The notes: a model not told the origin generated them from the sequence alone. Shown: positions 1,838 through 29,412, numbered from the stretch's first letter. The stretch is DNA of 32,000 bases from Verrucomicrobiota bacterium (GCA_021294815.2 CP095464.1:420001-452000), one strand, 5' to 3'. A program made the numbers and translations.

Positions 1838-1843
1838 GGAGTA

Positions 1844-1871: not shown

Positions 1872-1966
1872 TAAATTATTTAAACTCTAGCGGCATTTAT
1901 TGATAAAATTTTCAACAACTTACATACAGAAATTGCTCTTGCTGGGGACTGCCAGGCCCCCAATAA

Positions 1967-2773: not shown

Positions 2774-2794
2774 AGTAAATTCCCCAATTGAAAG

Positions 2795-2823
2795 TGCATA
2801 GTCTCCGGAAACAATTATTGAAA
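2795..2823 (-). promoter_or_regulatory. Possible internal promoter for CC-2
   Basis: Minus strand reads TTTCAA-17 nt-TATGCA, then 21 nt containing GGGGA, then ATG. It is weaker than the family promoters and does not follow the leaderless geometry. Confidence 0.3.
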
Positions 2824-2833
2824 TTCCTGGACG

Positions 2834-4219: not shown

Positions 4220-4259
4220 ATTAAAGTGAATCTGAAATTTGAATGTTTGTTCCGTCCCA

Positions 4260-5720
4260 TTAGGGATTCGTCTGGGCTGGCAATTTCTGTAGACCTTGCC
4301 ACATCTTGACGATCTCCCGCATGTCAGAATTCATTTTCGTGATAACCTCGTCAGGGATCTTGCGAAGACTCTGTTTTGCCGCGTCTTTTTCTTCTCGGAC
4401 CCGGTGATCGATTAATAGGAGAGTTGCATCTTCTCCATAACTTAAATCAAAATAACCCGAGTCTTCTTCATCCTCTGAATGATGATTTTCCTTCCAGTAA
4501 CACATGCATTTTCGAAACTCCTTAATCGTATTTTCCATCTCATCTTCAAGAGTCTTGATATTGCCACCTGCACCACGGATCTTTCGCTCCGAACACACAA
4601 TAGAATCTTTCGCAACATCAAACGAATGGAATTTTTCCACAAATCCGCTGAAAATTTTTTCGATATCCGCAAGGCCCTGGTTGATGGCCTGAAGTGATGG
4701 ATCTTTATCGGCAGAATTGAGATCTTGGCCTTGTATAAAAGATTTCATTGCCTCTAGATTCGCTTTTTCTTTGTCACACTTTGCCCGAAGCTTTTTTCGA
4801 GAGTCTTCGATCGCCTTGCCGTACTCGTCGAGTTCTTTTCGGTAGAGTTGAATTTCTTCCTTTACCTCAGGCTTCCATTGTGACTCCAGACTTGCCGTAA
4901 ACTCGTCGACCTGCGATTGTAAATCTTTCAGGGCCTTAGCACCTTCTGCGCCCAATTCTTTGTTGATCTGCGGGCCAAGTGGCTTAAGATATTCGTAGAT
5001 ATTATCGTCTACTTGCTGGTATTGTAACAAGTCTTTCTCTGTTAGTTCTGGCATTTCCAATGCGGCATTAACAGCGGGTTTAGCCATACGCAGGGCCTCA
5101 TCTGTTCGGCGAAGTTGTGTCTTCTTCGCCTCAAAATTCTTCAGAATGGTATCGAACTTCGTAGCGAGATCCCTTATTTCGTTTACTTCTTTCAAGCCAT
5201 TGAAACTCCCTCCTCGGTGCTGATCCGCTTTAGGCTTAAGTTGTCCAACAACATAATCCTTCGCCCCTTTGAGAAACTGTATTTTCAAGTCGAGTTCCTG
5301 ATACGCTTTCTGGCGTTGATCGAGCAGAGAGCGATATTCCTTAAAACCGCGCTGAACCCCTTGCCAATTGGCGATGTATTTATCCTTCCCGGGTTGCTCC
5401 TCCTGCTTTTTGAGGCGCTGCGTCTCTTCCTTGTATTGCGCCTCATCAATCTTCTGTTTCGCCCTCTTGAACTTTGTTTCGGAAAACTTGAACTTGTCCC
5501 CGTTGAAATCGAAACCGTCGTGGTTAATGTACTCACCCAGCTTTTTATAAAACGTCATTGCCTCTGCTGAATTCATTTGCATGCTCTTGATCTGGCGATA
5601 CTCATGGGCAACATTCCGAAAATTGACCTTCAGTCCCTTCTCCGCGACAGCGAATTTCGCCATCTCCCACTGCATTTGCCTGGTCTGAAAATTATTCCTG
5701 ATCTGCTCAACAACGCTCAT
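4260..5720 (-). CDS. Coiled-coil family protein CC-4 (hypothetical)
   Basis: N-terminus ...QTRQMQWEMAKFAV and box GDKFKFSETKF. 486 aa, K/E/Q-rich. The ATG lies 6 nt after the -10. Confidence 0.85.
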   Translation of the reverse strand: MSVVEQIRNNFQTRQMQWEMAKFAVAEKGLKVNFRNVAHEYRQIKSMQMNSAEAMTFYKKLGEYINHDGFDFNGDKFKFSETKFKRAKQKIDEAQYKEETQRLKKQEEQPGKDKYIANWQGVQRGFKEYRSLLDQRQKAYQELDLKIQFLKGAKDYVVGQLKPKADQHRGGSFNGLKEVNEIRDLATKFDTILKNFEAKKTQLRRTDEALRMAKPAVNAALEMPELTEKDLLQYQQVDDNIYEYLKPLGPQINKELGAEGAKALKDLQSQVDEFTASLESQWKPEVKEEIQLYRKELDEYGKAIEDSRKKLRAKCDKEKANLEAMKSFIQGQDLNSADKDPSLQAINQGLADIEKIFSGFVEKFHSFDVAKDSIVCSERKIRGAGGNIKTLEDEMENTIKEFRKCMCYWKENHHSEDEEDSGYFDLSYGEDATLLLIDHRVREEKDAAKQSLRKIPDEVITKMNSDMREIVKMWQGLQKLPAQTNP

Positions 5721-5726
5721 ATTGCG

Positions 5727-5754
5727 AGTATAGCATTATTGGTTAATTTGTAAA
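5727..5754 (-). promoter_or_regulatory. Sigma-70-type promoter predicting a leaderless CC-4 (CC-4/3/2 operon) mRNA
   Basis: Minus strand reads TTTACA-16 nt-TATACT-CGCAAT-ATG. It is preceded by the AT-rich TTAATATTTAT sequence shared with the promoter at 7115-7142; the promoter at 1844-1871 carries a variant (AAATAATTTAT). Confidence 0.65.
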
Positions 5755-5914
5755 TAAATATTAAATTACGTCATTCCATCCCTTCATTTTACAGCAGCTG
5801 CTCGCCAGAGGGCGGATCGGAGGATTTTTTTTGAAAACTCTCGGGTATTAATGGTTCTAAACCTAATTCCTCTGCGGAAGGCGGAAGCGGATAGTTGGAG
5901 GTCCCAAACGGTTC

Positions 5915-7108
5915 CTAAGAACTGAAGTCATATGGATCTAGTGGAATGAACCCTTCAAACGTATTCGCGTTGTCAGACGTGGTGGATTGCCATGAGGGAA
6001 TTTCACTGTCATACACAGGTTGCGCACTTTCTGCAACATCGAATGTCTGCTGATCATAGTTTTGTTCATCGGGCGACTCTGTCCCTTGGATATCTGGCAT
6101 TGAATTATCAACGTGTGCCTGCTGTGCTATTTCATTGGGGTTGAAAATTTCATTGGGGCTGAAAGATGGATCAAAGAAGAATTGGCCGTGTGGCATCCCG
6201 AACTCATCGAACGAATTCTCTGGCATAACAAAACCCTGATCGCCATATGGTGGAACCGCATTCACCTCATCGCTGACAAATGGAACCAATGGCGTGAAAT
6301 TATTCTCCCAGTCGTCCTCTTCTTGAGGAGAATGAGCGTACAACGATACAGCGTTTTGTACCTCAGCCTTATCCTCATAGGTCTTCAATTTTTGCTCAAG
6401 TTCCTCAATCCCACGTTCGATGGAGGAACAATCTTGCTGAACTTCCCAACTTCTATTACCAACTTTTTCCTCCAGATCCCTAATACTTTCGCGCTGTGTT
6501 TGAAGTTCTTCCATATTTCCCTGTACCAATACCTGCTTCCCTTCTTCGCATTTCTGTTGCAACTGACCTACTGATTGTTGCAATGCGCCAATTCTTGCTT
6601 GATGATAATCACTGTCTTGCGAAAGCCCGCGGTACGTATTCCAAAGCTCATAACGCTTACTGGAAAGTTCATGATGCTCTGTACTTCCCGTTTGCTCAAA
6701 AGGTTTTAACCTCGCATCAAGGGCTTCGAGTCGACTGCGAAAAGATTCAAGTTGCTCCGGATATTTATTGATATTACGGTTAATTATGCCGATTCTCTGT
6801 TCACAAAAATTCAAAGAATGCTGTAAATTCATTTTAGCATCCCGCAATTGTCGATAGGCTTCATCAGAAAACTGGAGTTTGGAAGCACCAAAAATATTTT
6901 TTGTTGTCACAAAGGCCTCTCTATTTTCGTTTAGCTGATCCTTGATGACATCACTCTTACCTCCCATTACCTTTATTGCAATATTAACAAGTTGTCCAAT
7001 CATAGCGAATGGGCCAACTTTTTCGCCTTGTTCAGCCTTTTGTGCAACAAACAACTTCGCCGCTTGTATCGCATTCGCCCGACCCCCTCCTTCGAGTGCA
7101 AACGTCAT
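5915..7108 (-). CDS. Coiled-coil family protein CC-5 (hypothetical) with acidic/aromatic C-terminal tail
   Basis: N-terminus MTFALEGGGRANAIQAAKLF, then GEKVGPFAMIGQL and GASKLQFSDEAY. The C-terminal tail carries DEQNYDQQTFDV..AQPVYD. It stops at TAG 5915-5917, but paralog-like sequence continues in frame to TAA at 5789-5791. Confidence 0.85.
   Translation of the reverse strand: MTFALEGGGRANAIQAAKLFVAQKAEQGEKVGPFAMIGQLVNIAIKVMGGKSDVIKDQLNENREAFVTTKNIFGASKLQFSDEAYRQLRDAKMNLQHSLNFCEQRIGIINRNINKYPEQLESFRSRLEALDARLKPFEQTGSTEHHELSSKRYELWNTYRGLSQDSDYHQARIGALQQSVGQLQQKCEEGKQVLVQGNMEELQTQRESIRDLEEKVGNRSWEVQQDCSSIERGIEELEQKLKTYEDKAEVQNAVSLYAHSPQEEDDWENNFTPLVPFVSDEVNAVPPYGDQGFVMPENSFDEFGMPHGQFFFDPSFSPNEIFNPNEIAQQAHVDNSMPDIQGTESPDEQNYDQQTFDVAESAQPVYDSEIPSWQSTTSDNANTFEGFIPLDPYDFSS
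6008..6073 (-). repeat. Conserved DNA segment encoding the shared C-terminal module (copy in CC-5)
   Basis: Aligned by eye to 7319-7384, about 56 of 66 nt are identical. It encodes ...DEQNYDQQTFDVAESAQPVYD. Confidence 0.7.
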
Positions 7109-7114
7109 ACATCC

Positions 7115-7142
7115 AGTGTAGTTTTATTGATTCATTTGTAAA
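7115..7142 (-). promoter_or_regulatory. Sigma-70-type promoter predicting a leaderless CC-5 mRNA
   Basis: Minus strand reads TTTACA-16 nt-TACACT-GGATGT-ATG. Confidence 0.6.
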
Positions 7143-7168
7143 TAAATATTAAATATTTAGAACTTAGG

Positions 7169-7894
7169 CTATTTAGAAGAAGGTGGAACCAACGGGGAAA
7201 GCGGCGTATCAGGTAAAGGCGGTAGCGGCGAAGGACCAAAGTCATCAGGGAACGACTCTGGATTCAACACCGATATATTACCTGTCACTGTAGGTTGTAA
7301 TTCCGGAAATGGCGATTCGTCGTACACAGGCTGCGCATCTTCTTCAACCTCGAATGTCTGTTGATCATAGTTTTGCTCGTCGGATAGAATGCTTTCCTTC
7401 GTATTTCCTGGTGCCACAGTGGGTTGCTGTTTCACGGAAGGTGGAATTTCCGAATTGTTTTGATTGTCGTATTCCCATTCTTCTTCGCTGAAGTCTTCTA
7501 AAAAGGGATCAAACGGATCATTTATGATATCATTGGGATCACCATTGAAAAGTGGATTCTCGTACTCCTCCCCCCAGTAATGTTCTTCATTGAAATTAGC
7601 CTCCTGAACTTCTCTCTCGGACTTCTCTGCCTCCAATTGGTCGTATTTGCTTTGTGAAAATTTAGGCTTCGATAGAAGAAACCTATCGCCTCCAACGAAA
7701 GCCGTCGCATACGTGTCCAATTCTTGCCGAGTCATACCGCCAGCGTTCTCTCCTTTAATCAGCTTTCTGGCATTCCCGAGCTGTTGATAAACGTCCCGAA
7801 ATCTAACCTTTTCTCCCGGTTGCGTTTGTTTAGTCGCTAACAATTTCGCCACCTGCCATGCACCCACATTTTTCCCATTAACTTTAAAATCCAC
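7169..7894 (-). CDS. Coiled-coil family protein CC-6 (hypothetical, short, acidic/Pro-rich tail)
   Basis: The tracked ORF starts at TTG 7915, but that would place the -10 hexamer inside the CDS. The GTG at 7894 gives (M)DFKVNGKNVGAWQVAKLL, which aligns with the paralog N-termini and sits exactly 6 nt after TATGCT. Box SKPKFSQSKY is present. The tail carries DEQNYDQQTFEVEEDAQPVYDE and ends PLPPLPDTPLSPLVPP. Confidence 0.8.
   Translation of the reverse strand: MDFKVNGKNVGAWQVAKLLATKQTQPGEKVRFRDVYQQLGNARKLIKGENAGGMTRQELDTYATAFVGGDRFLLSKPKFSQSKYDQLEAEKSEREVQEANFNEEHYWGEEYENPLFNGDPNDIINDPFDPFLEDFSEEEWEYDNQNNSEIPPSVKQQPTVAPGNTKESILSDEQNYDQQTFEVEEDAQPVYDESPFPELQPTVTGNISVLNPESFPDDFGPSPLPPLPDTPLSPLVPPSSK
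7319..7384 (-). repeat. Conserved DNA segment encoding the shared C-terminal module (copy in CC-6)
   Basis: See 6008-6073. This is the same module in the adjacent paralog. Confidence 0.7.
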
Positions 7895-7900
7895 GATTAA

Positions 7901-7928
7901 AGCATAACACCACAAGATAGTTTGTAAA
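7901..7928 (-). promoter_or_regulatory. Sigma-70-type promoter predicting a leaderless (GTG) CC-6 mRNA
   Basis: Minus strand reads TTTACA-16 nt-TATGCT-TTAATC-GTG. The -35 is the 3' end of a T7 tract preceded by CCTGTAAGGCG. Confidence 0.55.
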
Positions 7929-7932
7929 AAAA
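7926..7932 (-). repeat. Homopolymer tract (T7 on coding strand) fused to the -35
   Basis: The plus strand shows A7 between tgt and cgcc. This is the shortest of the four tracts at equivalent positions. Confidence 0.9.
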
Positions 7933-8325
7933 CGCCTTACAGGAAATTTTTACGTTTCTTCAGGGAAATTCAGCACTAAAGTGGTCAACATAGAATGGGC
8001 TCGCGCTCACTCAAATAAAAATAGGTCGAATGCTTACAGGCGATTTTGAGACTGAAAAACGAGTTAAAGAAACTCATTCTCTGCCATTCCCCTGTAGGTT
8101 TTATGGAGATTATCTTAGATCATTTTTTACAAAAGGCACCCTAGGCCTTCGCGCTATCATTTTTCAAGTTGACTTTTTTATAAGTGGAAAATTTCCATTA
8201 ACTGGAATTTTTCCATCTCGTCAAACTAATAGCTCAAGAGCCTGTCTACCAACTGACTCCGAAGCATAAAGTTCTTGGGTTCTAGTTATTTAGAGTTTTC
8301 ATGAGCGGGCAGAGTTTTAGGAGCC

Positions 8326-9385
8326 CTAGTAGGCGCCCTTAATCTGTGACTCTTCTGCTGTCCATATGTCACCATCCGGATCAAATGCCTGTTGATCGTA
8401 GGACTACTCATTTGTTAAGACGTTGGCACCATCAGAGGCGCTTCTGATAATGCCCCCTATCGACATGCACTACCCCATCGGCCCCCAGCCCTCGTCCACA
8501 CCAGGAGCATCGTTGAAATCGGAGTCGTTAATATTAAGCTCTTGGTTTATCAGTGGCTCGGAAGGGACATCCTTCATGTTGGGATCGTTTTCATCTGGAA
8601 CAAACATAGGGGCATCTGCGTTGGGATCTTGTGACAGTTGCTTAAACGCTTCGTCCGCGGTGTCTTTTCCCAACAATCCTTCCAACTGAGTTTTCAACTG
8701 CTCGAACATCTTTATCGCGGATGAACACAAATCCGCGCCGGTCTCTTTGAGCTTATCTTTAGCTATATTTAATCCTGCTATCATTTTATCGCAGTCGCCT
8801 TGTAGGTCTGAAATTTGTTCTTGCGGCAGCTGACGATCTTTGACACTAGTGACCAAACCATCAAATCCCTGACAGAGGTTCGAAAAAGTTGTGAGCAACG
8901 ATCGAATTTCTTCCTGAGAAGCAAAGTTTGGTCTTGTTGCAATAGCCCCCACGTGCTGCTCATATCCCTTTAGCTTCTCCCCTGTCTCCTTCAGAGACTC
9001 AAGTTTTTGATCCCACCCCAGTTTTTCATTACGCAACTCGTGGCACTTTGCTTTATTCAGTTTCAAAGCAGTCTTTCCTTTTTCTGAAGTCAAAGCCCCC
9101 TGCTTTAACATACGCTAACACTATATTGCCAATATTGTCTATTTTGTCCCGCTCCTTCTGGCTTAACCCGCTTAACCCGACTTTATCCGCTTTTTTGAGT
9201 AAGCGACTGATAATGAAGCTTTTGATGCCCTGTTTAATGCGCGCAAAGGGACCAGGTCGTTTACCTTTTAGCTCTTTATTCGTGATTAGGCTTTTTGCCA
9301 CTTCTTTCGCGCTGATATCTCCAATCTTCTCCTCCCCCTGTGTAACAGTAAATCCCCTCGGGCCAACTGCTATTCTGAAATCCAT
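8326..9385 (-). pseudogene. Decayed coiled-coil family member CC-7 (one frameshift, two in-frame TAG)
   Basis: ORF 9053..9385 (MDFRIAVGPRGF...KRPGPFARIKQG...YVKAGGFDF) and ORF 8470..9111 (...EKGKTALKLNKAKCHE...) are two halves of one paralog. They are joined by a 1-nt frame change at the A5 run (plus-strand T5, 9079-9083). After TAG 8470-8472 the same frame continues ...ANVLTNE-TAG(8404-8406)-SYDQQAFDPDGD..., which matches the DEQNYDQQTF tail of CC-5 and CC-6. It ends at TAG 8326-8328. Confidence 0.75.
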
Positions 9386-9391
9386 ATTTGA

Positions 9392-9419
9392 AGTATAACT
9401 TTATAAAGCAATTTGTAAA
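9392..9419 (-). promoter_or_regulatory. Sigma-70-type promoter with leaderless geometry upstream of CC-7
   Basis: Minus strand reads TTTACA-16 nt-TATACT-TCAAAT-ATG. The -35 ends a T12 tract preceded by ATGTAAGGCG. Confidence 0.55.
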
Positions 9420-9428
9420 AAAAAAAAC
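9417..9428 (-). repeat. Homopolymer tract (T12 on coding strand) fused to the -35
   Basis: Plus-strand A12 run. Confidence 0.9.
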
Positions 9429-9709
9429 GCCTTACATAAACTTTTTTAACCTTCTTGCGAATAACCTCAAGTTTCAGGCTATTGAAAAATAAGCAGATAC
9501 TTCTCTCACATAAAGAAAGGTCCCCTCCCTGGTATTTTTAAATGCTTTTGGGGAAACCGTCATCAGTCGATGATGCTTTTCAATGGGAAACTTTAACTCA
9601 CTATCGGGCATTAAGATTCCTCTAACGGCGACCTTTGAAATCCCGCGAAGAATTTTATCAATTGGAATCTTTGAAAACCCTTATTTTCATACTGAGACTT
9701 TATGTCGTA

Positions 9710-11983
9710 CTAATTTTTTCCTAACATCTCCTTAATCTCTTGGCATACTTTATGGAATGCTTCATAGTTTTGAGCAAAATCTTCATTCGTCCCATTCAAG
9801 CCTGCTACGTTGCTATTATATGCCTGCTCGATCTTTTGTTTACTTTGCTCGATAAGCTCCTGTAATTGCTCCAAATTAACCAAAAGTTCCTGGCCTTCAG
9901 TCGATTCTAATTCACCCTCATCTGAAGGTTCAACTGCGGATCTGGTGATTTCTGCGAGTGTTGCAGCATAGCCGATTGATCTATCAATTTGAGCCTTATC
10001 CCTATCAATTAAAATTCGACACCCTGCTGGCGTCTTCAGCAGTTCCGTTTCCAGAGCGCTCAGCTTTTCCATACACGCCTGTTGTAGTGGTTCAATTTCT
10101 TGATTTTTCTTTTTTACTTCATCTGAATCGCTCTTGAACCGCTTGTGGACCTCTGCAAACTTTTGTATAACCTCGTGATCGATCGTCACATCGGCCGTTC
10201 GAAATTTCTCCTTAGCACTATAGCAGTCGCTATAAACGGATTTTGCTTGCCGACTTGTTTCCTGGATACCCGCTTGTAAATCATCGGAGGCTTTGACAAA
10301 AGCATCATAAAGCGATTGGATATTGTCGGGTAATGTTTTGCCGTCAGATAATAGGTTATCGATAGCACCCTTAAAATCCTCCGCAGTTTGAACGTGTTGT
10401 GCATGTATCGCATTAGCCTTTTCTACATTGGTCTTGATTGCTGTATTGAATGCGTTGAGCTGCCTCCACGAAGCGGTTGAAGTACTGGCCTTCAGCCTTG
10501 ATAATGATTTCTTTTCGCTTCTCCCTTGTGGGGCGATTCGACTCAGAAGCCCAATGTTCTGATCTATATCCTTGCAGAATTTCTCAATATCCTGAATCCT
10601 TCTTGAATCGCCGATTTTTAGCTGCTCAAGTTGAGCTTCGTACTCTTTTATGGTTTGCTCAACTCCCAAAGCAAATTCCTGACGGGTTTCAGTTTTATAC
10701 GTCTCCAACTCGCCATATTCCTTTTCTAAGGCTTTCTGAAAATCTGGATCATCCAAAGCCAAAGTTGCAAATGCCTTCAGTGCAGCTTCATGATGTGCAC
10801 AAATTTCGTCAAAATTTTTATTCCATTCTTCTTGTTTAGCTTTAAATCGGTCAAGCTTTGTCTGTGGCAGTGATTGGGCGTACTGCTTGAGCCCGCTGAG
10901 CGCAGTTTCGGCATTAGTCATTTTACCTTGAAGCCTTGATATCTTCCTATTCACATCCTCCTTTATCTGCCCCATACTTTGGTCCGTATTGGCAAAGAAC
11001 TCAGAAACTTTCTGAAAATCTGGTGATTTTTCAAAATCTTTGCTTGGTTTGGCGTGTCCTAGTCGACGAATGGCATCCTCTATACCTTGGAGTGGATTCG
11101 CGAAATCTGAAGGTTTCCTATAAGCGGCATTTTCAAGATCTATAACTGCTCCACGTTGCGCCTCTCTCAGATTTGCGTACCCCACTTTTAGTTGATCTTG
11201 TAACTGCGCTTTTTTCTCCGGGTCAGTTTCGTTGCCAATAAGCTTTTCAAGTTCATTGAACTCCGCTGTCATGAGTTCGCACTTCTGTGATAATTCCGCC
11301 TCATATCGTTCTTCGAGATCATTGATTTGCTCATAGCATTGATTTAACTTTGTTTGGAAATCATTACATTTGTTCTTAAGGGCCGCTTGGTATTTTGCCG
11401 CCGTCTGTTCAACTTCCTTTTTAAAACTTTCAATTCGCTTAGGAATTTCCTGAATCACGTTTTGGAGTACCCGAAGCTTCTCTTTATCGTTGTTGACCTG
11501 CTTAGGATCATTTTTTAGAAGATTTTGTCCGACGAAAAGGTTCAGGTTCTTTTTAAGCTCTTTAATATCAGCGAGCATTTGGTTAAATTGGTTGATTTGC
11601 ACCTGTGTCATCACATGTTGATTATCCTGAACAAGCTGATTTAAGTCATTCACATATGCACTGGCACTCGATTTTATATCGTACGAACCATGAACAAAAT
11701 CGTTCACAACCTTCATGCCGTCCTTCACCTGCTTTTGCTCATTTTCCCATGCCTTTTCAAAACCCTCTTGATTGAATTTCCCAGCTTTAAAAGCACTCAA
11801 GCCAAATCTTTCGATATTCGCTTCTACAGAAGCTCTGCTGCCATTCTTAAGCTTAAAAAATTGCCCTATGGTCGTAGAAGACATTTTAAATTTACCGCCA
11901 CAAGCCTCACGATTTTTCCTCTCAATCGCCGATGTTAGCCTTGCCGCCTGCCACCGACTGACACCCCCAATCATTTCTCCCAT
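9710..11983 (-). CDS. Coiled-coil family protein CC-8 (hypothetical, largest member, 757 aa)
   Basis: N-terminus MGEMIGGVSRWQAARL matches the G-x-x-x-W-Q/E-x-A-K/R-L motif. The long K/E/Q-rich body has no TM segment or signal peptide. The ATG lies 6 nt after the -10. Confidence 0.85.
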   Translation of the reverse strand: MGEMIGGVSRWQAARLTSAIERKNREACGGKFKMSSTTIGQFFKLKNGSRASVEANIERFGLSAFKAGKFNQEGFEKAWENEQKQVKDGMKVVNDFVHGSYDIKSSASAYVNDLNQLVQDNQHVMTQVQINQFNQMLADIKELKKNLNLFVGQNLLKNDPKQVNNDKEKLRVLQNVIQEIPKRIESFKKEVEQTAAKYQAALKNKCNDFQTKLNQCYEQINDLEERYEAELSQKCELMTAEFNELEKLIGNETDPEKKAQLQDQLKVGYANLREAQRGAVIDLENAAYRKPSDFANPLQGIEDAIRRLGHAKPSKDFEKSPDFQKVSEFFANTDQSMGQIKEDVNRKISRLQGKMTNAETALSGLKQYAQSLPQTKLDRFKAKQEEWNKNFDEICAHHEAALKAFATLALDDPDFQKALEKEYGELETYKTETRQEFALGVEQTIKEYEAQLEQLKIGDSRRIQDIEKFCKDIDQNIGLLSRIAPQGRSEKKSLSRLKASTSTASWRQLNAFNTAIKTNVEKANAIHAQHVQTAEDFKGAIDNLLSDGKTLPDNIQSLYDAFVKASDDLQAGIQETSRQAKSVYSDCYSAKEKFRTADVTIDHEVIQKFAEVHKRFKSDSDEVKKKNQEIEPLQQACMEKLSALETELLKTPAGCRILIDRDKAQIDRSIGYAATLAEITRSAVEPSDEGELESTEGQELLVNLEQLQELIEQSKQKIEQAYNSNVAGLNGTNEDFAQNYEAFHKVCQEIKEMLGKN

Positions 11984-11989
11984 GGACCC

Positions 11990-12017
11990 AGTATATTTCC
12001 ATACAGCAATTTGTAAA
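11990..12017 (-). promoter_or_regulatory. Sigma-70-type promoter predicting a leaderless CC-8 mRNA
   Basis: Minus strand reads TTTACA-16 nt-TATACT-GGGTCC-ATG. The -35 ends a T15 tract preceded by CCTGTAAAGCG. Confidence 0.6.
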
Positions 12018-12029
12018 AAAAAAAAAAAA
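12015..12029 (-). repeat. Homopolymer tract (T15 on coding strand) fused to the -35
   Basis: Plus-strand A15 run. Confidence 0.9.
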
Positions 12030-12166
12030 CGCTTTACAGGAAAATTTTATAATTTCATTAATAATCTCACACTCTAAGTCATAGAATAAACAACTCACCT
12101 GCGCCCCGAAACGAGCATTCGTGCATCAATACAACCTAAATAACTTTCTCAAACAAGCCAATTTGT

Positions 12167-12303
12167 TTACATCTTAATCGACGATGTAACCTGCAATACA
12201 CTCGTAATCACACTTAAGGCGAGGATCGCGACGCCAACAAAGGCACAGCCGCTATAGCTATTGCTGCTTTGATATCTCTGATTTCTCTTTTGCCTTGTTG
12301 CAT
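12167..12303 (-). pseudogene. Truncated copy A of the gspF 3' end (last TM helix)
   Basis: 12167-12250 encodes GCAFVGVAILALSVITSVLQVTSSIKM*, which is identical to the GspF C-terminus. I count 5 nucleotide differences, all synonymous third positions. Upstream of 12250 a 2-nt insertion breaks the frame (AIAIA.. vs AIAMG) and similarity fades. Confidence 0.8.
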
Positions 12304-12308
12304 GTTGT

Positions 12309-12987
12309 CTAGCTTAAAAGAGGCAACGGCATCAAAGGGAGACTTTGAATGCTATACGATAACGTTGAACCGTCTTCGAGCGTGACTTTATTCTTTTCTT
12401 CAGCCATGGGTATAAGATTATTCAATGCCTCCGCCAGATCGTTGTATGCTTCTACCATAGCGTAATCTTCTTTAAGAACATTGTTATACTCATCGCGAAT
12501 AGTTGTATTCGTCTCTTGAGAACATTTTGCATCATCTGCATCTAGAGACTGTCCTATCTGATCAATTTTGCTTTGATATGTCGTAATTTTCGCTGACAGT
12601 TCCCGATACTCTTGAGAGTCTTCGCTCAGGTTTAGTGCCTTTAGTGTATTTTGAAGTGGTGCAAGATTCCTTGATGCTTTTCCTTAATCTCTTTGGTTGC
12701 ATTCGCTACCTTTTCCGCTTTTATCACATCATACTCTGATCTTACAAATTGAAGCTTTGAAGTTCCAAATATACCGTTTGTAGTGGGCTGGAAAGAACGC
12801 TCATACAAATTTAGTTTCTTCTCGATAGCAGCACGATCGCCCTTGATCAATTTTATTCCAATATTTATAGGCTGCTTGATCGTCGAGAGTGTATTGCTTC
12901 TCCCTATATTTGGGTTTTCTTCTGCAGCCAAAACTTAGCCGTCTCCCATGCGCTAACTTTACCACCACTCTCGAGCTTAAAGGACAT
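12309..12987 (-). pseudogene. Decayed coiled-coil family member CC-9 (at least two frameshifts)
   Basis: ATG 12987 gives MSFKLESGGKVSAWETAKF, then the frame breaks at the T4 run (plus-strand A4, 12930-12933). Tracked ORF 12641..12931 continues ...IGIKLIKG...GTSKLQFVRSEY (cf. CC-5). A third frame then carries ...LNLSEDSQEYRELSAKITTYQSKIDQ... to TAG 12309-12311. The promoter geometry is kept but the hexamers have decayed (ATTTAA-16-TTAACT-6-ATG, 12994-13021). Confidence 0.7.
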
Positions 12988-13198
12988 AAGTCGAGTTAAT
13001 GCCACACGACGTACTTTAAATCAATAACACATTTATTTACATTTTTAACCTATACCCAAATATGCGATCGCATTTCGTAGAAATTTTGTGTTCGTGTAAT
13101 ACAACTTCGCATTCGACCTTAGCCACCTGTCTTTTTACAGAAGGCCTTGTTAAAAATGCTACGCAAATGATGTAGAATGCGGTTCGACTATCTCCGTT

Positions 13199-13399
13199 TT
13201 ACATCTTAATCGAAGAGGTAATTTGCAAGACACCCGCAACGACGCTCGCGACGCCGACAAAGGCACAGCACATGGCTATGGCCGTGACTATACTCGACAT
13301 CATGTTGAGGTCGTTCATCAGGACCCCGTGATACTTCTTGTAGACGCTGCTCAGAAAATCTGCGAATCGATATTCTTGCAAATTGGCAGGCGAGCTCAC
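13199..13399 (-). pseudogene. Truncated, more diverged copy B of the gspF 3' end
   Basis: The tracked 66-aa ORF ends ...SSVYKKYHGVLMNDLNMMSSIVTAIAMCCAFVGVASVVAGVLQITSSIKM*. This is clearly homologous to GspF ...KSVYKKYHGDLINDLNMMSSAVTAIAMGCAFVGVAILALSVITSVLQVTSSIKM*, with a 4-codon gap. Nothing upstream corresponds to the rest of GspF. Confidence 0.75.
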
Positions 13400-13466
13400 A
13401 CCGTGATAACGTTTAAAACTTATGAAATTACAGAACTCGCACCAGCATCAATTACATGAGATGCTA

Positions 13467-15278
13467 CTACCATCCAAATCTCTGTCTCTTATTGGATCTT
13501 TCCGATTGTTTCCCAATTTTAGCAAACAAATCTTTCATTGCTTGGGGTGCCTCTGTTAGCAATGCTTGTATTGTGTCTTTAGGTACCTCTTTCAGTACTT
13601 CTTCCAAAATACCAGCTACATTCGCCCGATATTCCGTAAATAGCCCTTGAATATTCTCGTCTAGTTTTGCAAAAGTATTTCTGAATTCCGTAACCGTTTG
13701 CTCAACTGCTTTTTCACTCTCTTGAATTTCCCTAATATTTCCGCTTCCAATAAGACTTTCTAAATGCTCAATTGCGCTTTGAACCTTGCTCTTTGCCTGA
13801 TTGTATGATTGAAAATTGTTCGCAAATCGATCATAAGCCTCTTTAAGTTTTTGAATACCTTCTTCGAACTTTTGGGTATTGTGCGCGCCACTTTTAAGCT
13901 CCTCTAAATAGCCTATGGGAGCATCGTGGAATGGTTGAACATAACTCATGTAAGAATCCATGGAAGACGTGCATCCTTCACATGTGGCTTTAGCTGCGTC
14001 AAGATCTTGTTGGAGCATTTGCCTCAATTGCTCATTAAGATTCGTTTTTAGTTGATCAATTGCTGGTTGCAGTTTGGACTCACCCAAATGCTCAATTTCC
14101 TGTTGAATTTGACGGAACTGCTCAAGTATAAAAGCGTCTTGTCTTTGTAATTCAGCCTCATCTATGTTATCAGCTGACATTAGTTGGCTCTGCGAAGTGT
14201 TAATGCTCGCCTGAAGTAGCTGAAGTTTATTGGAGATTTCATTGGCCGCACTTTGTTGCTGTTGTAGCTTGTCTGCAACGGTGTTGTGTTGCTCATTAAG
14301 CTTGCTCAGAGTTTCCGTCCCCTGAAGTTTTTGGCCAACGTAATTCTTGAGATCCTGAAGCGACATCAGTTGCTCTTGAAGGTTTGAGCAACTTTTCTGG
14401 AGAGTTTTCAAAGAATTTTCCTGAGTACCTACATTTGCTCGTAACTGATCCCATTTCGATGCGTATAGGTCCCTAATTTGCTGGTTTTTAAGGTTTTGTA
14501 AGTCCGTTTTCAGCGCGTTGATTTCGGCCTGAAGGGATATCCCTTCTGCACCACCGAATGTCTTATTGATTTCATGGCCAATCTGCCCAACTTTCTCATG
14601 TATTGCTTCATCAAATTGCTGGCAAACAGACAAATTCTGATCTTGCGTAGGGGCCGTTTCGAAAATGTTCTGTCTCACATTATTGAGGTCCGCATTAAAC
14701 CGTGCTACAGATTTGTTTTGTTCCCTGATTTTATTTAGGAGTTCCTGATACCGGTTATTAATTTTGCTTAGTTTGTCTGCATACTTCGATCCCTCGGGAA
14801 CGCTGATCGCGTTCTTTTCTTCCTCAAACGATTTCAGTTGTCCTTCAAGTCCTAAACAATTCTTCTGTTGGTCGCTCAAAAAAGTCTCAAATTCCCCAAC
14901 GGCGTTTTGAAAATTGTCCCATTCTTTATGGTACTGGTCTTTGCGATCTTTAATTTGTTGCTGTGCGATATGATGCTGTTTATTTTTCATCTCCACTGTC
15001 TGGTTATACCCTGAACGAGAAAAATAGGGTATATCTATCTTTTTCCCGAACAAACTAATCGTCGCTTTTTTAAAAGTCTCAGTTTCAGCATACTTTTGTA
15101 GGTCTCCGTAAAATTTCCGCCCCTCGTCAGAGTACGGATTTTTTCGTGCATTTCTAACAGTTTTAAAATATGCCTTGATAACGTCTACGGAAAAGACGTT
15201 TTCTGGATTATACGATCGAGCTGCTGTAAATATCGCAGCGTTTAAACCGCCAACTCGCTTGTTGAGGTTTTCTACCAT
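13467..15278 (-). CDS. Coiled-coil family protein CC-10 (hypothetical)
   Basis: N-terminus ...RVGGLNAAIFTAAR and box LFGKKIDIPYFSRSGY align with the family. 603 aa, Q/E/K/N-rich. Unlike its siblings it has a leader of about 50 nt. Confidence 0.85.
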   Translation of the reverse strand: MVENLNKRVGGLNAAIFTAARSYNPENVFSVDVIKAYFKTVRNARKNPYSDEGRKFYGDLQKYAETETFKKATISLFGKKIDIPYFSRSGYNQTVEMKNKQHHIAQQQIKDRKDQYHKEWDNFQNAVGEFETFLSDQQKNCLGLEGQLKSFEEEKNAISVPEGSKYADKLSKINNRYQELLNKIREQNKSVARFNADLNNVRQNIFETAPTQDQNLSVCQQFDEAIHEKVGQIGHEINKTFGGAEGISLQAEINALKTDLQNLKNQQIRDLYASKWDQLRANVGTQENSLKTLQKSCSNLQEQLMSLQDLKNYVGQKLQGTETLSKLNEQHNTVADKLQQQQSAANEISNKLQLLQASINTSQSQLMSADNIDEAELQRQDAFILEQFRQIQQEIEHLGESKLQPAIDQLKTNLNEQLRQMLQQDLDAAKATCEGCTSSMDSYMSYVQPFHDAPIGYLEELKSGAHNTQKFEEGIQKLKEAYDRFANNFQSYNQAKSKVQSAIEHLESLIGSGNIREIQESEKAVEQTVTEFRNTFAKLDENIQGLFTEYRANVAGILEEVLKEVPKDTIQALLTEAPQAMKDLFAKIGKQSERSNKRQRFGW

Positions 15279-24864: not shown

Positions 24865-25171
24865 AGAACCTACTGATAGCAGCAGAATTTTTAAAGCTGT
24901 TTCTTTTTTCTTATGGATTGATTATCTTACTCATAAGTAGCCGCTGAGCGTCTATTTTCTTTTCAGGAACCGCAAGCTTTTTGTGCCAAAACTCCATCTG
25001 TTTTTATAAAATATCTCTTAGAATCTGAGGCTTACGTGCTTAAATTTCCCTCTAATCACATAATTTGCCGCTTCTTTTCTGCCAAATTGCCCAACTTCTT
25101 TGAGTGATCCGGGAACACGTTAGTTATTCCGCACCTTCACACTGAAAATTTTTCCTTAACGTTTACATCTG

Positions 25172-25187
25172 TGGCACGAAAATTGCT
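25172..25187 (+). promoter_or_regulatory. Sigma-54 (-24/-12) promoter consensus upstream of dnaK
   Basis: TGGCACGAAAATTGCT matches TGGCAC-N5-TTGCW exactly. GG is at 25173-74 and GC at 25185-86. It is in the same orientation as dnaK, about 97 nt upstream of its ATG. Confidence 0.55.
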
Positions 25188-25214
25188 AACTAGATCTGCA
25201 GCGTGTTTCAGTGA

Positions 25215-25230
25215 ACTCTTATAAAAGAGT
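25215..25230 (+). promoter_or_regulatory. Perfect palindrome in the dnaK leader (operator or 5'-UTR hairpin candidate)
   Basis: ACTCTT-ATAA-AAGAGT. The flanks (AGTGAACTC-N8-GAGTGGAGC) resemble CIRCE (TTAGCACTC-N9-GAGTGCTAA) only loosely. Confidence 0.3.
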
Positions 25231-25282
25231 GGAGCTGGAATAGTAACTGTTCTTTAATCATTTAATTAAAAGGAATTATATT

Positions 25283-27214
25283 ATGTCAAAAGTTCTCGGT
25301 ATCGATCTCGGTACTACAAATTCTTGCATGGCGGTCATGGAAGGTGGCCAGGCTGTCGTTATCCCGAATTCGGAGGGTGCTCGTACAACCCCTTCGATCG
25401 TCGCGTTCACCAAAAATGGAGACCGCCTCGTCGGTCAGGCCGCTAAGCGTCAGGCCGTTACAAACCCTCAAAATACGATTTTCTCCGCAAAACGTCTCAT
25501 CGGTCATAAGTATGAGGAAGTTCAGGAACTCGTTCATGACCTCCCTTATAAGGTCGTTCCCGGTAAGAATGGAGACGCCGCAATCCAATGTCAGGTCGGC
25601 GGAAAAACTGAAATCTTTTCCCCAGAACAAATTTCCTCTATGGTCTTGGCTAAACTCAAGGCCGATGCAGAAGCTTACCTCGGAGAGAAAATTACTCAGG
25701 CCGTCATTACCGTCCCGGCGTACTTTAATGATGCACAACGACAGGCTACTAAAGATGCCGGTACCATCGCTGGCCTCGAGGTGTTGAGAATTATTAATGA
25801 GCCAACGGCTGCTTCGTTGGCGTATGGTCTGGAGAAAAGCGGCGAGAAGAAGATCGCGGTCTATGACCTCGGTGGTGGTACGTTCGATATCTCGGTACTT
25901 GAAATCGGAGATGGGGTGTTTGAAGTAAAGGCAACCAACGGTGATACCCTGCTCGGTGGTGATGACTGGGATCGTGCAATTATCGATTGGCTCGCGGATA
26001 ATTTCAAGGCGGACAATGGGATCGATCTGCGGACGGATCCGGTAGCCCATCAGCGTTTGAAGGAAGAGGCGGAAAAGGCTAAAATTGCCCTATCATCGGC
26101 ACAACAGACGGATATTAATCTGCCCTTTATTACCGCCGATGCATCAGGACCGAAGCATCTCAATGTAACACTTACGCGGGCGCAATTGGAGAAAATCTGT
26201 GACTCCCTTTATCAACGGACGGTTCAGCCGTGTAAGAATTGTCTCCATGACGCCGGATTAAGCGCAAATGATATCGATGAGCTCGTGCTTGTTGGCGGTA
26301 TGACGCGTTCGCCGAAGGTCGTCGAAACTGCACGTGACATTGCCGGTCGGGATCCTCACCAGGGCGTTAACCCGGACGAAGTCGTTGCCGTTGGTGCGGC
26401 AATCCAAGGGGGTGTTTTAAAGGGAGAAGTTACCGATGTTCTGTTACTCGATGTGACTCCGTTAACACTTGGGATTGAAACCGCCGGTGGTGCGTCTACA
26501 CCGATGATCGAACGGAATACGACTATCCCGACGCAGAAGAGTCAGATCTTTTCGACTTATGCCGATAATCAGACGGCAGTCGATATCCATGTGCTTCAGG
26601 GAGAGCGTCCGTTGGCGTCTCAAAATAAGACATTGGGTATCTTTCGTTTGGATGGTATTCCGATCGCTCCCCGTGGAGTCCCGCAAATCGAAGTCACCTT
26701 CGATATCAATGCGAACGGTATTCTGAGTGTGACCGCTAAGGATCTCGGTAGTGGTAAGAATCAAAAGATTACGATTACCGGCGCGTCGGGGTTATCCGAA
26801 ACGGAAGTCGAAAAGTTGCGTAAAGAGGCGGAACAGTTCGCGGAATCGGATAAGCGTGAAAAGGAGCGGATCGAGGTCCGTAACCAACTCGACAGCTTGG
26901 TATATCAGACCGAAAAGCAGCTCAAGGACACCGGTGATAAGCTCCAGGATTCTGATAAGCAAAAGATGGAGAATGCGATCGCGGAGGCCAAAAAGGTCTT
27001 TGAAGATAGTAGCGCGTCGACCGATGCGATGAAGGCTGCCGTCGATCAATTAACAAAAGTATTTCAGGAAGTCGCCCAGGAACTGTATAAGAATGTACAG
27101 CCCAATCCTCAACCTCAGCCAGAGGCTGCGCAGTCGTCTACCGCGGGCGGTCAGCAATCTTCTGATGGTGTCGTCGATGCCGATTTCGAGGTCGTCGATG
27201 AAGGTAAGAAGTAA
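25283..27214 (+). CDS. dnaK: Molecular chaperone DnaK (Hsp70)
   Basis: [25 protein letters not shown] and the full Hsp70 architecture. 643 aa. Confidence 0.98.
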
Positions 27215-27233
27215 TCATGGAAAGGAGGTATGT

Positions 27234-27290
27234 ATGTTTGGTCCCGGAAATAAACCCTGCAAGGGCGGCGGTTGCGGCTGCGGCAAGTAA
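27234..27290 (+). CDS. Candidate 18-aa Cys/Gly-rich mini-protein
   Basis: AGGAGG (27223-27228) lies 5 nt before the ATG. The translation is MFGPGNKPCKGGGCGCGK*. It starts 20 nt after the dnaK stop. There is no homology evidence; support is the SD and the composition only. Confidence 0.3.
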   Translation: MFGPGNKPCKGGGCGCGK

Positions 27291-27339
27291 CCAATAGGGA
27301 GGATGAGATGAATATTTCATCCTCAGAGGTAACATTTAC

Positions 27340-27358
27340 CAGGGGATTTGTTCCCCTG
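27340..27358 (+). terminator. Hairpin in the dnaK-groES spacer (weak terminator or attenuator candidate)
   Basis: CAGGGGA-tttgt-TCCCCTG forms a 7-bp stem, followed only by TT. A second hairpin, GAGGATGA-N10-TCATCCTC, lies at 27299-27324. Confidence 0.3.
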
Positions 27359-27465
27359 TTCAGGTCCGTGGTATGGCAAAGGTCTGATAGGAGAGATTTT
27401 TGTTGCATTGGGCCGAGTTTTTCAACCCTATCCTAATTCTTTTCCCATCTAAAAATTGAATTGTT

Positions 27466-27759
27466 ATGAGTATTAATATCCAACCCTTAGGGGATCGTGT
27501 CCTCGTGAAGTTACTCGAGGAGAAGGAACAAGTGAAGGGCGGTATCATTATCCCCGATGCCGCGAAAGAGAAGTCGCAAGAGGCAACCGTCGTTGCGGTC
27601 GGCCCCGGTAAGCGTGATGAGCATGGTCAACGTTTGGCGATGGATGTCGCCGTCGGTGACCACGTGCTGATTAGTAAATACGGTGGCACCGAGGTCAAAC
27701 ATAGCGATGAGAAGTACACTCTCTTGCGACAAGATGACGTGTTAGCGATTTTTAAATAA
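27466..27759 (+). CDS. groES: Co-chaperonin GroES
   Basis: 97 aa. The sequence [11 protein letters not shown]...GGIIIPD...VVAVGPG is a typical Cpn10. Confidence 0.97.
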
Positions 27760-27780
27760 ACCCTTTAACATCATTGATGA

Positions 27781-29412
<1,632 letters not shown>

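What the first reader, a model, noticed from the sequence alone, without database searches (positions are those of the whole stretch)
25062..25187. An exact sigma-54 -24/-12 element in front of dnaK
**Seen in sequence**
- TGGCACGAAAATTGCT (25172-25187) matches the established RpoN consensus TGGCAC-N5-TTGCW at every fixed position. It points toward dnaK, about 97 nt upstream of its ATG.
- A 10-position match is expected well under once by chance in a window this size.
- About 85-110 bp upstream lies an imperfect inverted repeat, AATTTGCC-N11-GCCAAATT (25062-25088), at a distance typical of enhancer-binding-protein sites.
- Only a poor sigma-70 alternative is visible: TTTACA at 25162-25167 with no acceptable -10.
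- I found no convincing CIRCE element or sigma-32 promoter.

**Inference**
- Control of the main Hsp70 gene by sigma-54 would be unusual. dnaK is classically controlled by sigma-32 or HrcA/CIRCE.
Basis: partly seen in the sequence, partly recalled or inferred. Interest (0 to 1): 0.6.

Follow-up and report, generated by a model that had tools for sequence, protein, structure and literature searches.

The report
Conserved sigma-54 promoter driving dnaK-groESL
The exact sigma-54 promoter motif in front of dnaK is real and is kept in front of the dnaK-groES-groEL chaperone cluster in all 21 Verrucomicrobiota loci examined. This phylum therefore most likely runs its main chaperones from sigma-54, as already reported for Bacteroidota and predicted for Planctomycetota, instead of from sigma-32 or HrcA/CIRCE.

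Summary
TGGCACGAAAATTGCT lies at 25172-25187 (+), 95 nt before the dnaK ATG, and is the only exact TGGCAC-N5-TTGCW match in the window (0 of 100 shuffles).

- **Organism:** a Verrucomicrobiota (Opitutales/Puniceicoccales) MAG.
- **Conservation:** all 21 Verrucomicrobiota dnaK loci examined carry a GG-N10-GC element just upstream of dnaK. Six carry the identical 16-mer although the surrounding DNA is unalignable. Only 5 of 69 dnaK loci from other phyla reach 9/11 (p about 6e-12).
- **Operon:** dnaK-groES-groEL order is conserved in every locus. No CIRCE, sigma-32 or sigma-70 alternative exceeds chance.
- **Enhancer:** more distant relatives have TGTCACA/TGTGACA sites at fixed offsets (about -103 and -145), a typical enhancer layout. 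The window's own clade lacks them.
it is at chance level and absent from the closest relative.
- **Sigma factor:** rpoN is present in all surveyed Verrucomicrobiota genomes and essential in Verrucomicrobium spinosum.
- **Precedent:** TSS-mapped sigma-54 promoters at dnaK and groESL in Flavobacterium psychrophilum, and predictions for Planctomycetota.

Verdict: a real, very probably functional sigma-54 promoter, and a new member of a known kind. No transcript evidence was available, and the activator is unidentified.

The parts
25172..25187 (+). Sigma-54 (RpoN) -24/-12 promoter element TGGCACGAAAATTGCT (GG at 25173-25174, GC at 25185-25186)
   Evidence: It is the only exact consensus match in the window, with 0/100 shuffles. 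The identical 16-mer lies upstream of dnaK in L081, L082, L083, L087 and L210, with variants in all other Verrucomicrobiota loci. The same 16-mer precedes rpoN, glnA, pilin, HPr and groES/groEL genes in metagenome contigs.
25197..25200 (+). Predicted transcription start (inferred only)
   Evidence: Inference from the canonical sigma-54 geometry, in which +1 lies about 11 nt after the last motif base. No transcript data are available.
25198..25282 (+). Predicted dnaK 5' UTR, with a 5'-proximal stem-loop (about 25198-25250) and the Shine-Dalgarno AAGGA near 25271
   Evidence: RNA fold gives -19.4 kcal/mol, z = -1.9. L081 folds into the same shape, with different bases in the stem. The blocks AGCGTGTTTC and the last 45 nt are conserved between the window and L081. 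Support for the structure is weak, and no consensus structure was found across distant relatives.
25283..27214 (+). dnaK (Hsp70), 643 aa
   Evidence: Pfam HSP70, E = 6e-260. It is 98% identical to the DnaK of an Opitutales MAG.
27235..27291 (+). 18-codon Cys/Gly-rich ORF MFGPGNKPCKGGGCGCGK with a strong Shine-Dalgarno (GGAAAGGAGG)
   Evidence: It is conserved in L081 as MFGPGDKPCQGGGCGCGK. Five of the seven nucleotide differences are synonymous third-position changes. It was found only in these two closest genomes.
27466..27759 (+). groES (Cpn10), 97 aa
   Evidence: tblastn and Pfam Cpn10 hits in relatives. It lies downstream of dnaK in all Verrucomicrobiota loci. No + strand terminator is predicted in the spacer.
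27784..29412 (+). groEL (Cpn60), 542 aa
   Evidence: Pfam Cpn60_TCP1, E = 1e-78. dnaK-groES-groEL order is conserved in 20 relatives.

Best explanation
The 16-mer at 25172-25187 is a functional sigma-54 (RpoN) promoter for a dnaK-(small ORF)-groES-groEL transcription unit in a Verrucomicrobiota (Opitutales/Puniceicoccales) genome.

**Mechanism.** Sigma-54 RNA polymerase binds the GG (-24) and GC (-12) elements as a closed complex. It starts transcription near 25198 only when an AAA+ enhancer-binding protein (bEBP) remodels it. The two main chaperone machines are therefore switched by one activator, most likely in response to proteotoxic or heat stress.

**Shown:** the motif, its uniqueness in the window, its phylum-wide conservation in front of the same gene cluster, and the absence of CIRCE, sigma-32 and sigma-70 alternatives.

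**Inferred:** that it is used, the transcription start, co-transcription of groESL, the activator and the inducing signal.

**Enhancer.** More distant Verrucomicrobiota have a positionally fixed TGTCACA/TGTGACA upstream activating sequence (UAS). The window's own AT-rich clade shows no detectable UAS, so its activator may bind a diverged site or act without DNA binding.
For: **The site**
- The match is exact and unique, with 0/100 shuffles.

**Conservation upstream of dnaK**
- All 19 first-round Verrucomicrobiota dnaK loci have a GG-N10-GC element within 150 nt upstream of dnaK: 17/19 score at least 9/11, against 5/69 loci from other phyla (Fisher p = 6e-12), and 13/19 score at least 10/11, against 1/69 (p = 3e-10).
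- Two further loci, L210 and L211, also carry it.
- The identical 16-mer survives in six lineages with DnaK identity down to 77%. Meanwhile, DNA more than 40 nt upstream is unalignable even at 98% DnaK identity.
- The position-frequency table shows the sigma-54 signature (T1, C4, A5, Y6, T12, T13, W16) with a free spacer in distant relatives.
- The distance to the ATG varies from 11 to 134 nt, as expected for a promoter and not for a translation signal.

**Gene cluster and alternative promoters**
- dnaK-groES-groEL order is conserved in all loci, usually with a 21-56 nt dnaK-groES gap.
- No CIRCE-like site (up to 4 mismatches) occurs in 221 kb of these loci.
- No sigma-32-like or sigma-70-like promoter exceeds chance.

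**Enhancer sites in distant relatives**
- There are 10 exact TGTCACA/TGTGACA sites in 3 kb upstream against 2 in 83 kb elsewhere. They sit at about -103 and -135/-145 from the -24 element.

**The same 16-mer elsewhere**
- It precedes rpoN (one of these is Verrucomicrobiota), glnA, pilin, HPr and three groES/groEL operons in metagenome contigs.

**Literature**
- rpoN is present in 10/10 Verrucomicrobiota genomes surveyed, including the Puniceicoccales Coraliomargarita and Ruficoccus (PMC12316311 supplement).
- rpoN is essential in Verrucomicrobium spinosum and Planctopirus limnophila but not in E. coli. groL, groS and grpE are essential in V. spinosum (PMC12283558 supplements).
- TSS-mapped sigma-54 promoters precede dnaK and groESL in F. 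psychrophilum (PMC9723704).
Against: - No transcript, TSS or mutant data exist for this organism or any Verrucomicrobiota dnaK.
- rpoN and bEBP genes are not in the window or in the 18 first-round Verrucomicrobiota flanking loci scanned. Their presence in this genome is inferred from the phylum.
- No UAS could be found in the window's clade. The k-mer search gave no more than shuffles, and the TGTSACA motif is absent. In L210 the promoter sits only about 40 nt after the sufBD-family gene.
- A sigma-54-only promoter gives no basal expression without an active activator, which is awkward for an essential chaperone.
- In the window and L081 a 251-259 nt spacer precedes groES. Its last 110 nt are 100% conserved and may hide a separate groES promoter.
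- Heat induction is assumed from gene function, not shown.
Confidence: 0.75

Rival explanations
1. The element is a genuine sigma-54 promoter but is not a heat-shock switch. A constitutively active or differently cued bEBP (envelope, nutrient or growth-phase signal) drives housekeeping expression of dnaK-groESL, and temperature control, if any, lies elsewhere, for example in mRNA structure or stability.
For: - dnaK and groESL are needed at all temperatures, and groL/groS are essential in V. spinosum.
- In F. psychrophilum the sigma-54 chaperone cluster responded to blood agar, osmotic pressure and plasma, conditions other than classical heat shock (PMC9723704).
- The long leaders fold into 5' stem-loops.
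- No UAS is detectable in the window's clade.
Against: - No data bear on induction either way.
- The conserved, positionally fixed UAS in distant relatives argues for a specific regulated activator.
- The leader hairpins are not alignable and have modest z-scores.
Confidence: 0.15
2. The conserved 16-mer is the operator of another DNA-binding regulator, such as a repressor of the chaperone operon. It only resembles the -24/-12 consensus, and transcription comes from an unrecognised housekeeping promoter.
For: - PVC housekeeping promoters are poorly characterised, so a sigma-70-type promoter could be missed by E. coli-based scans.
- GCA-N7-TGC within the motif is weakly palindromic.
Against: - The conserved positions are exactly those contacted by sigma-54 (GG, GC, T1, C4, A5, T12, T13), at fixed N10 spacing with a variable spacer across the phylum. 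They are not a dyad.
- The same 16-mer precedes classical sigma-54 targets, including rpoN itself, in other contigs.
- The distance to the ATG varies from 11 to 134 nt.
Confidence: 0.06
3. The match is a chance occurrence with no function.
For: One-mismatch matches are expected about 0.9 times per window.
Against: - An exact match occurred in 0/100 shuffles.
- The identical or near-identical element is found at the orthologous position in 20 other Verrucomicrobiota loci, against 5/69 in other phyla.
Confidence: 0.02

Closest known systems
Sigma-54 (motif SM4) promoters of the proteostasis cluster in Flavobacterium psychrophilum (Bacteroidota), PMC9723704
   Same: A -24/-12 element lies directly upstream of dnaK and of groES-groEL. 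There is no sigma-32 or CIRCE logic, and the activator is not identified.
   Different: - There the starts were mapped by 5'-end RNA-seq; here nothing is mapped.
- There each chaperone gene or operon (dnaK, groESL, grpE-dnaJ, htpG, clpB, lon) has its own sigma-54 promoter.
- Here dnaK, groES and groEL are fused into one cluster behind a single element, in a different phylum (Verrucomicrobiota).
Predicted sigma-54 chaperone regulon in Planctomycetota and Bacteroidota (PSSM survey, PMC12316311)
   Same: Computational finding of sigma-54 promoters upstream of the DnaK, DnaJ, GrpE, GroES, GroEL and IbpA COGs. Planctomycetota belong to the same PVC superphylum.
   Different: The survey text reports enrichment for Planctomycetota and Bacteroidota only. 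For Opitutia and Verrucomicrobiia it mentions motility, ABC transporters and rpoN autoregulation, not chaperones.
E. coli sigma-54-dependent stress promoters (pspA with PspF, ibpB, rpoH P6). Recalled from established knowledge, not tested here.
   Same: Sigma-54 with a bEBP is used for stress-protective genes. PspF shows how a bEBP can be controlled by a titratable inhibitor.
   Different: In E. coli the main dnaK and groESL promoters are sigma-32 dependent, and sigma-54 is auxiliary and non-essential.
Myxococcus xanthus HsfA/HsfB control of lonD. Recalled from established knowledge, not tested here.
   Same: A two-component NtrC-type bEBP activates a heat-shock gene from a sigma-54 promoter, and rpoN is essential in that organism.
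   Different: The target there is a Lon protease paralogue, not dnaK-groESL, and the organism is an unrelated phylum.
Classical HrcA/CIRCE and sigma-32 heat-shock control
   Same: The regulated genes are the same (dnaK, groESL).
   Different: No CIRCE was found in the window or in 221 kb of related loci, and no sigma-32-like promoter exceeds chance.

Membership tests
Sigma-54 (RpoN)-dependent -24/-12 promoter | GG and GC dinucleotides exactly 10 nt apart within a match to TGGCAC-N5-TTGCW | tested here: met
   11 of 11 fixed positions match at 25172-25187, and the match is unique in the window with 0/100 shuffles.
Sigma-54 (RpoN)-dependent -24/-12 promoter | Sits in an intergenic region, oriented toward and within a few hundred nt of a gene start | tested here: met
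   It is on the + strand, 95 nt upstream of the dnaK ATG, in a 418-nt intergenic spacer.
Sigma-54 (RpoN)-dependent -24/-12 promoter | Element conserved upstream of orthologous genes with the sigma-54-specific pattern | tested here: met
   All 21 Verrucomicrobiota dnaK loci carry it. Of the first 19, 17 score at least 9/11, against 5/69 in other phyla.
Sigma-54 (RpoN)-dependent -24/-12 promoter | Genome encodes RpoN | tested here: inconclusive
   rpoN is not in the 32 kb window or in the flanks of relatives (regex scan; Pfam). At phylum level, 10/10 surveyed genomes have rpoN, Verrucomicrobiota RpoN proteins are abundant, and rpoN is essential in V. spinosum.
Sigma-54 (RpoN)-dependent -24/-12 promoter | Cognate enhancer-binding protein and upstream activating sequence about 80-150 nt upstream | tested here: inconclusive
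In distant relatives TGTCACA/TGTGACA sites sit at fixed offsets and are more than 100-fold enriched. No bEBP gene was identified.
Sigma-54 (RpoN)-dependent -24/-12 promoter | Transcription start about 11 nt downstream of the GC, and loss of the transcript in an rpoN mutant | not testable with these tools
   No transcriptome or genetics is available for this organism.
Sigma-54-controlled proteostasis regulon (as in F. psychrophilum cluster B254) | Several chaperone or protease operons (grpE-dnaJ, clpB, htpG, lon as well as dnaK and groESL) share the element | not testable with these tools
   Only dnaK-groESL lies in the window and the fetched loci. Whole genomes of the lineage could not be read.
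HrcA/CIRCE-controlled chaperone operon | TTAGCACTC-N9-GAGTGCTAA inverted repeat upstream of dnaK or groES | tested here: not met
   There are 0 matches with up to 3 mismatches in the window and 0 with up to 4 mismatches in 221 kb of Verrucomicrobiota dnaK-groESL loci. Four of 71 loci from other phyla have one.
Sigma-32 (RpoH) heat-shock promoter | TTGAAA-N13-17-CCCCAT-like hexamers upstream of dnaK | tested here: not met
   The best match is 8/12, below the shuffle mean of 8.6.

The most novel reading that the evidence does not exclude
Verrucomicrobiota, and perhaps the PVC superphylum as a whole, have replaced sigma-32 and HrcA with an essential sigma-54 circuit. One promoter drives a fused dnaK-groES-groEL operon under a dedicated, still unidentified proteotoxic-stress-sensing bEBP that binds TGTCACA/TGTGACA sites. 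This dependence would explain why rpoN is essential in Verrucomicrobium and Planctopirus. In the AT-rich clade of this window the UAS has been lost, so the activator would act from solution, like the DNA-binding-domain-less bEBPs of Chlamydia and Helicobacter.
Probability: 0.3. Interest if true: 0.7.

Novelty: new member of a known kind. Interest (0 to 1): 0.5.

Why it matters
- Heat-shock control is textbook sigma-32 or HrcA/CIRCE. A third scheme, sigma-54 plus an ATP-dependent activator, is emerging outside the model phyla.
- This window and its relatives add a whole phylum, including the gut symbiont Akkermansia muciniphila. They show an unusually compact form, with one sigma-54 element in front of a dnaK-groES-groEL cluster.
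- It offers a concrete, testable explanation for the reported essentiality of rpoN in PVC bacteria.
- It defines a candidate enhancer motif that could be used to identify the stress-sensing activator.

Tried and rejected
- **Exact-protein look-up of the window's DnaK:** it is not on record.
- **Rfam scan of the window:** no family matched.
- **Genome-collection scan with DnaK:** The remaining 71, 69 of them usable, served as the out-group control.
- **Metagenome scan with the exact 16-mer, meant as a regulon test:** It says nothing about grpE, clpB or htpG in this lineage. It did show that the 16-mer precedes classical sigma-54 targets and some groES/groEL operons.
- **Six-frame regex scan for GAFTGA, the bEBP Walker A motif and the RpoN box in the window and 18 loci:** nothing found.
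- **UAS search in the window clade:** shared 8-mers are no more frequent than in shuffles, and the group-B TGTSACA motif is absent.
rejected as unsupported. It does sit at the position where distant relatives have their UAS, and L008 has a loosely similar AATTTGGC...TGCCAAAA. That resemblance was not judged significant.
- **Second sigma-54 site before groES:** none scores at least 9/11. The L007 hit at 3883 is the MAKQL codons of groEL.
- **Consensus RNA structure of the dnaK leaders:** the sequences are not alignable, and 0 pairs were predicted.
- **Literature searches for sigma-54 with dnaK in Verrucomicrobia or Akkermansia:** no paper states it.

Full report
**1. The observation**

The sequence TGGCACGAAAATTGCT is at 25172-25187 on the + strand. 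It is the only exact match to TGGCAC-N5-TTGCW on either strand of the window, and none of 100 dinucleotide-preserving shuffles produced one. With one mismatch allowed, about 0.9 matches per window are expected, so exactness matters.

The next gene downstream is a 643-aa Hsp70/DnaK (25283-27214; Pfam HSP70, E = 6e-260). Ninety-five nt separate the motif from the ATG.

- AATTTGCC-N11-GCCAAATT is at 25062-25088.
- TTTACA is at 25162-25167, with no usable -10.
- No CIRCE is present.

My own scans found no sigma-32-like or sigma-70-like hexamer pair in the 418-nt spacer that exceeds shuffled sequence.

**2. Context and organism**

Downstream of dnaK lie groES (27466-27759), groEL (27784-29412) and dnaB. 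Upstream is a divergently oriented ORF with no Pfam hit.

The closest DnaK proteins in the public protein collection are from Opitutales and Puniceicoccales MAGs, at 98% and then 86-75% identity. The window therefore comes from a Verrucomicrobiota (class Opitutae). Its GC content is 45%, and the spacer is 36% GC.

**3. Conservation of the motif**

I collected dnaK loci from two sources:
- a genome-collection scan gave 9 Verrucomicrobiota loci and 71 from other phyla;
- exact-protein look-ups gave 11 closer relatives, L081-L089, L210 and L211.

Every Verrucomicrobiota locus has a GG-N10-GC element just upstream of dnaK.
- The identical 16-mer occurs in L081, L082, L083, L087 and L210, whose DnaK identity to the window is 98-77%.
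- Variants occur in L084 (TGGCACAATAATTGCT), L088 (TGGCATGAAATTTGCT), L085/L086/L211 (GGGAACA[A/G]AAATTGCT), Akkermansia muciniphila L007 (TGGCACACGCCTTGCG) and Verrucomicrobiales L008 (TGGCACAGCGATTGCA), among others.
- Of the first 19 loci, 17 score at least 9/11, against 5 of 69 usable loci from other phyla (Fisher p = 6e-12). Thirteen of 19 score at least 10/11, against 1 of 69 (p = 3e-10).

The conservation is selective. Between the window and L081 (98% identical DnaK), the promoter block, a short block just after it and the last 45 nt before the ATG are conserved. DNA more than about 40 nt upstream of the element cannot be aligned.

The position table shows the sigma-54 signature (T1, C4, A5, C/T6, T12, T13, T/A16) with a free spacer in distant relatives. 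GG and GC are invariant by construction of the search. The distance from the element to the ATG ranges from 11 to 134 nt. This fits a promoter and does not fit a translation-linked signal.

**4. The transcription unit**

dnaK-groES-groEL order is present in the window and in all 20 relatives, including Akkermansia. In most relatives the dnaK-groES gap is only 21-56 nt. No second element scoring at least 9/11 precedes groES. A single sigma-54 promoter therefore probably serves both chaperone systems.

The window and L081 have a 251-259 nt spacer instead.
- It holds an 18-codon Cys/Gly-rich ORF with a strong Shine-Dalgarno sequence and two hairpins.
- It has no predicted + strand terminator.
- Its last 110 nt are 100% conserved between the two genomes.

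A separate groES promoter cannot be excluded in these two genomes.

No CIRCE-like site (up to 4 mismatches) exists in 221 kb of Verrucomicrobiota dnaK-groESL loci, whereas 4 of 71 out-group loci have one.

**5. Enhancer**

Repeats of that quality occur at the chance rate in this spacer (3 observed, 3.9 expected), and it is absent from L081.

The more distant Verrucomicrobiota (L001-L008, L089) do show a striking upstream pattern. There are 10 exact TGTCACA/TGTGACA sites in 3 kb upstream, against 2 in 83 kb of the remaining locus DNA. One site always sits about 103 nt, and another about 135-145 nt, before the start of the -24 element. Several form palindromes, for example GTGTCAC-ACT-GTGACAC in L004. 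This is the layout expected for a dimeric bEBP acting on a sigma-54 promoter, and it independently supports the promoter assignment for the phylum.

The window's AT-rich clade lacks this motif, and no shared k-mer exceeds shuffles. In L210 the promoter lies only about 40 nt after the upstream sufBD-family gene. The activator site in this clade is therefore unknown. It may be diverged, may lie inside coding DNA, or may be dispensable.

**6. Is sigma-54 available?**

No rpoN or bEBP signature is present in the window or in the 18 first-round Verrucomicrobiota loci. This is expected for such short stretches.

Indirect evidence that sigma-54 is present in the phylum is good:
- The supplementary tables of a 2025 survey list one rpoN in each of 6 Opitutia genomes, including the Puniceicoccales Coraliomargarita akajimensis and Ruficoccus, and in each of 4 Verrucomicrobiia genomes (PMC12316311).
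- In metagenome contigs the exact 16-mer precedes four rpoN genes. One of them clusters with Verrucomicrobiota RpoN proteins of the Luteolibacter type, which fits the rpoN autoregulation that survey reports for Verrucomicrobiia.
- The same 16-mer also precedes glnA, pilin, HPr and three groES/groEL operons, so it is a working sigma-54 promoter sequence in nature.
- TraDIS data list rpoN as essential in Verrucomicrobium spinosum, and its orthologue as essential in Planctopirus limnophila, but not in E. coli. groL, groS and grpE are essential in V. spinosum (PMC12283558 supplements).

Sigma-54 dependence of an essential dnaK-groESL operon would explain that essentiality. This link is my inference and is not stated in that paper.

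**7. Comparison with what is known**

Sigma-54 control of the main chaperones is not new in kind.
- In Flavobacterium psychrophilum, 5'-end mapping placed -24/-12 promoters at groESL, lon, dnaK, grpE-dnaJ, htpG and clpB (PMC9723704).
- The 2025 PSSM survey found the DnaK, DnaJ, GrpE, GroES, GroEL and IbpA COGs enriched for predicted sigma-54 promoters in Bacteroidota and Planctomycetota (PMC12316311).

That survey's text does not report the chaperone enrichment for Verrucomicrobiota. My searches found no paper stating it for this phylum or for Akkermansia.

New here are the phylum, the fused dnaK-groES-groEL arrangement behind one element, the fixed-offset TGTSACA enhancer in part of the phylum, and the possible link to rpoN essentiality.

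**8. Mechanism and confidence**

The best-supported reading (confidence about 0.75) is a functional sigma-54 promoter. It forms a closed complex at 25172-25187, starts transcription near 25198 after remodelling by a bEBP, and produces a dnaK-(small ORF)-groES-groEL transcript.
- **Shown:** the sequence, its uniqueness, its conservation, the synteny, and the lack of alternative promoters or CIRCE.
- **Inferred:** use of the promoter, the start site, co-transcription, the activator, and induction by heat or unfolded protein.

The main rival keeps the sigma-54 promoter but holds that the cue is not heat. The operator-mimic and chance readings are unlikely given the conservation pattern.

**9. Verdict**

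Its proposed enhancer is not supported, and its 'unusual' label needs qualifying. I rate it a new member of a known kind, of moderate interest (0.5). The experiments that would settle it are simple to run in Akkermansia or Opitutus.

Noticed in passing
window 27235-27291 (+); L081 2266-2322: An 18-codon Cys/Gly-rich ORF (MFGPGNKPCKGGGCGCGK) with a strong Shine-Dalgarno sequence lies between dnaK and groES. In L081 it reads MFGPGDKPCQGGGCGCGK, and 5 of the 7 nucleotide differences are synonymous third-position changes, which suggests a real small protein. It is seen only in the two closest genomes; other relatives have a 21-56 nt dnaK-groES gap.
   Followed up: partly
L001-L004 and L089, immediately upstream of dnaK (e.g. 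L002 3974-3989, L004 about 3974): In Opitutaceae-type relatives the -24/-12 element ends only 11-14 nt before the dnaK ATG. A canonical sigma-54 start would therefore give a leaderless or 1-4 nt leader mRNA, even though Shine-Dalgarno-like purine runs sit in that short stretch.
   Followed up: partly
L001-L008 and L089, about 100-150 nt upstream of the -24 element: TGTCACA/TGTGACA sites, some palindromic such as GTGTCAC-ACT-GTGACAC in L004, sit at fixed offsets of about -103 and -135/-145 from the -24 element. There are 10 exact copies in 3 kb against 2 in 83 kb elsewhere. This is a candidate binding site of an unidentified bEBP.
   Followed up: partly
window 25283-29412 and all 20 related loci: The gene order dnaK-groES-groEL, with no grpE or dnaJ adjacent, is conserved across Opitutae, Verrucomicrobiales and Akkermansia. 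This arrangement is uncommon in other phyla.
   Followed up: yes
L109, L123, L146, L185 (metagenome contigs): The exact 16-mer TGGCACGAAAATTGCT lies 27-55 nt upstream of rpoN genes. The L123 RpoN is of the Verrucomicrobiota (Luteolibacter) type. This suggests rpoN autoregulation from the same optimal promoter sequence.
   Followed up: partly
L160, L174, L196 (metagenome contigs, taxa unknown): The same 16-mer precedes ~290-aa sigma-70-family genes (L160 Pfam-confirmed; L174 and L196 by sequence similarity to it). These three share a conserved AAGGAATTA block about 35 nt upstream of the -24 element. They may be sigma-54-controlled alternative sigma factors.
   Followed up: no
window 25198-25250; L081 231-278; L084 9941-9972; L083 about 527-610: The long dnaK leaders each fold into a 5'-proximal stem-loop built from different sequences (z = -1.9 to -4.7). 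No consensus could be derived because the leaders are not alignable. This could be an mRNA-stabilising 5' hairpin.
   Followed up: partly
window 27355-27465 vs L081 2394-2504: The last 110 nt before groES are 100% identical between the window and L081, whereas the region upstream of the dnaK promoter is unalignable. This hints at an additional regulatory element or an internal groES promoter.
   Followed up: no
window 881-15278: A run of large minus-strand ORFs (318-757 aa) has no significant Pfam domain. Two MgtE_N-domain proteins at 20670-23891 lie next to the chaperone locus.
   Followed up: no
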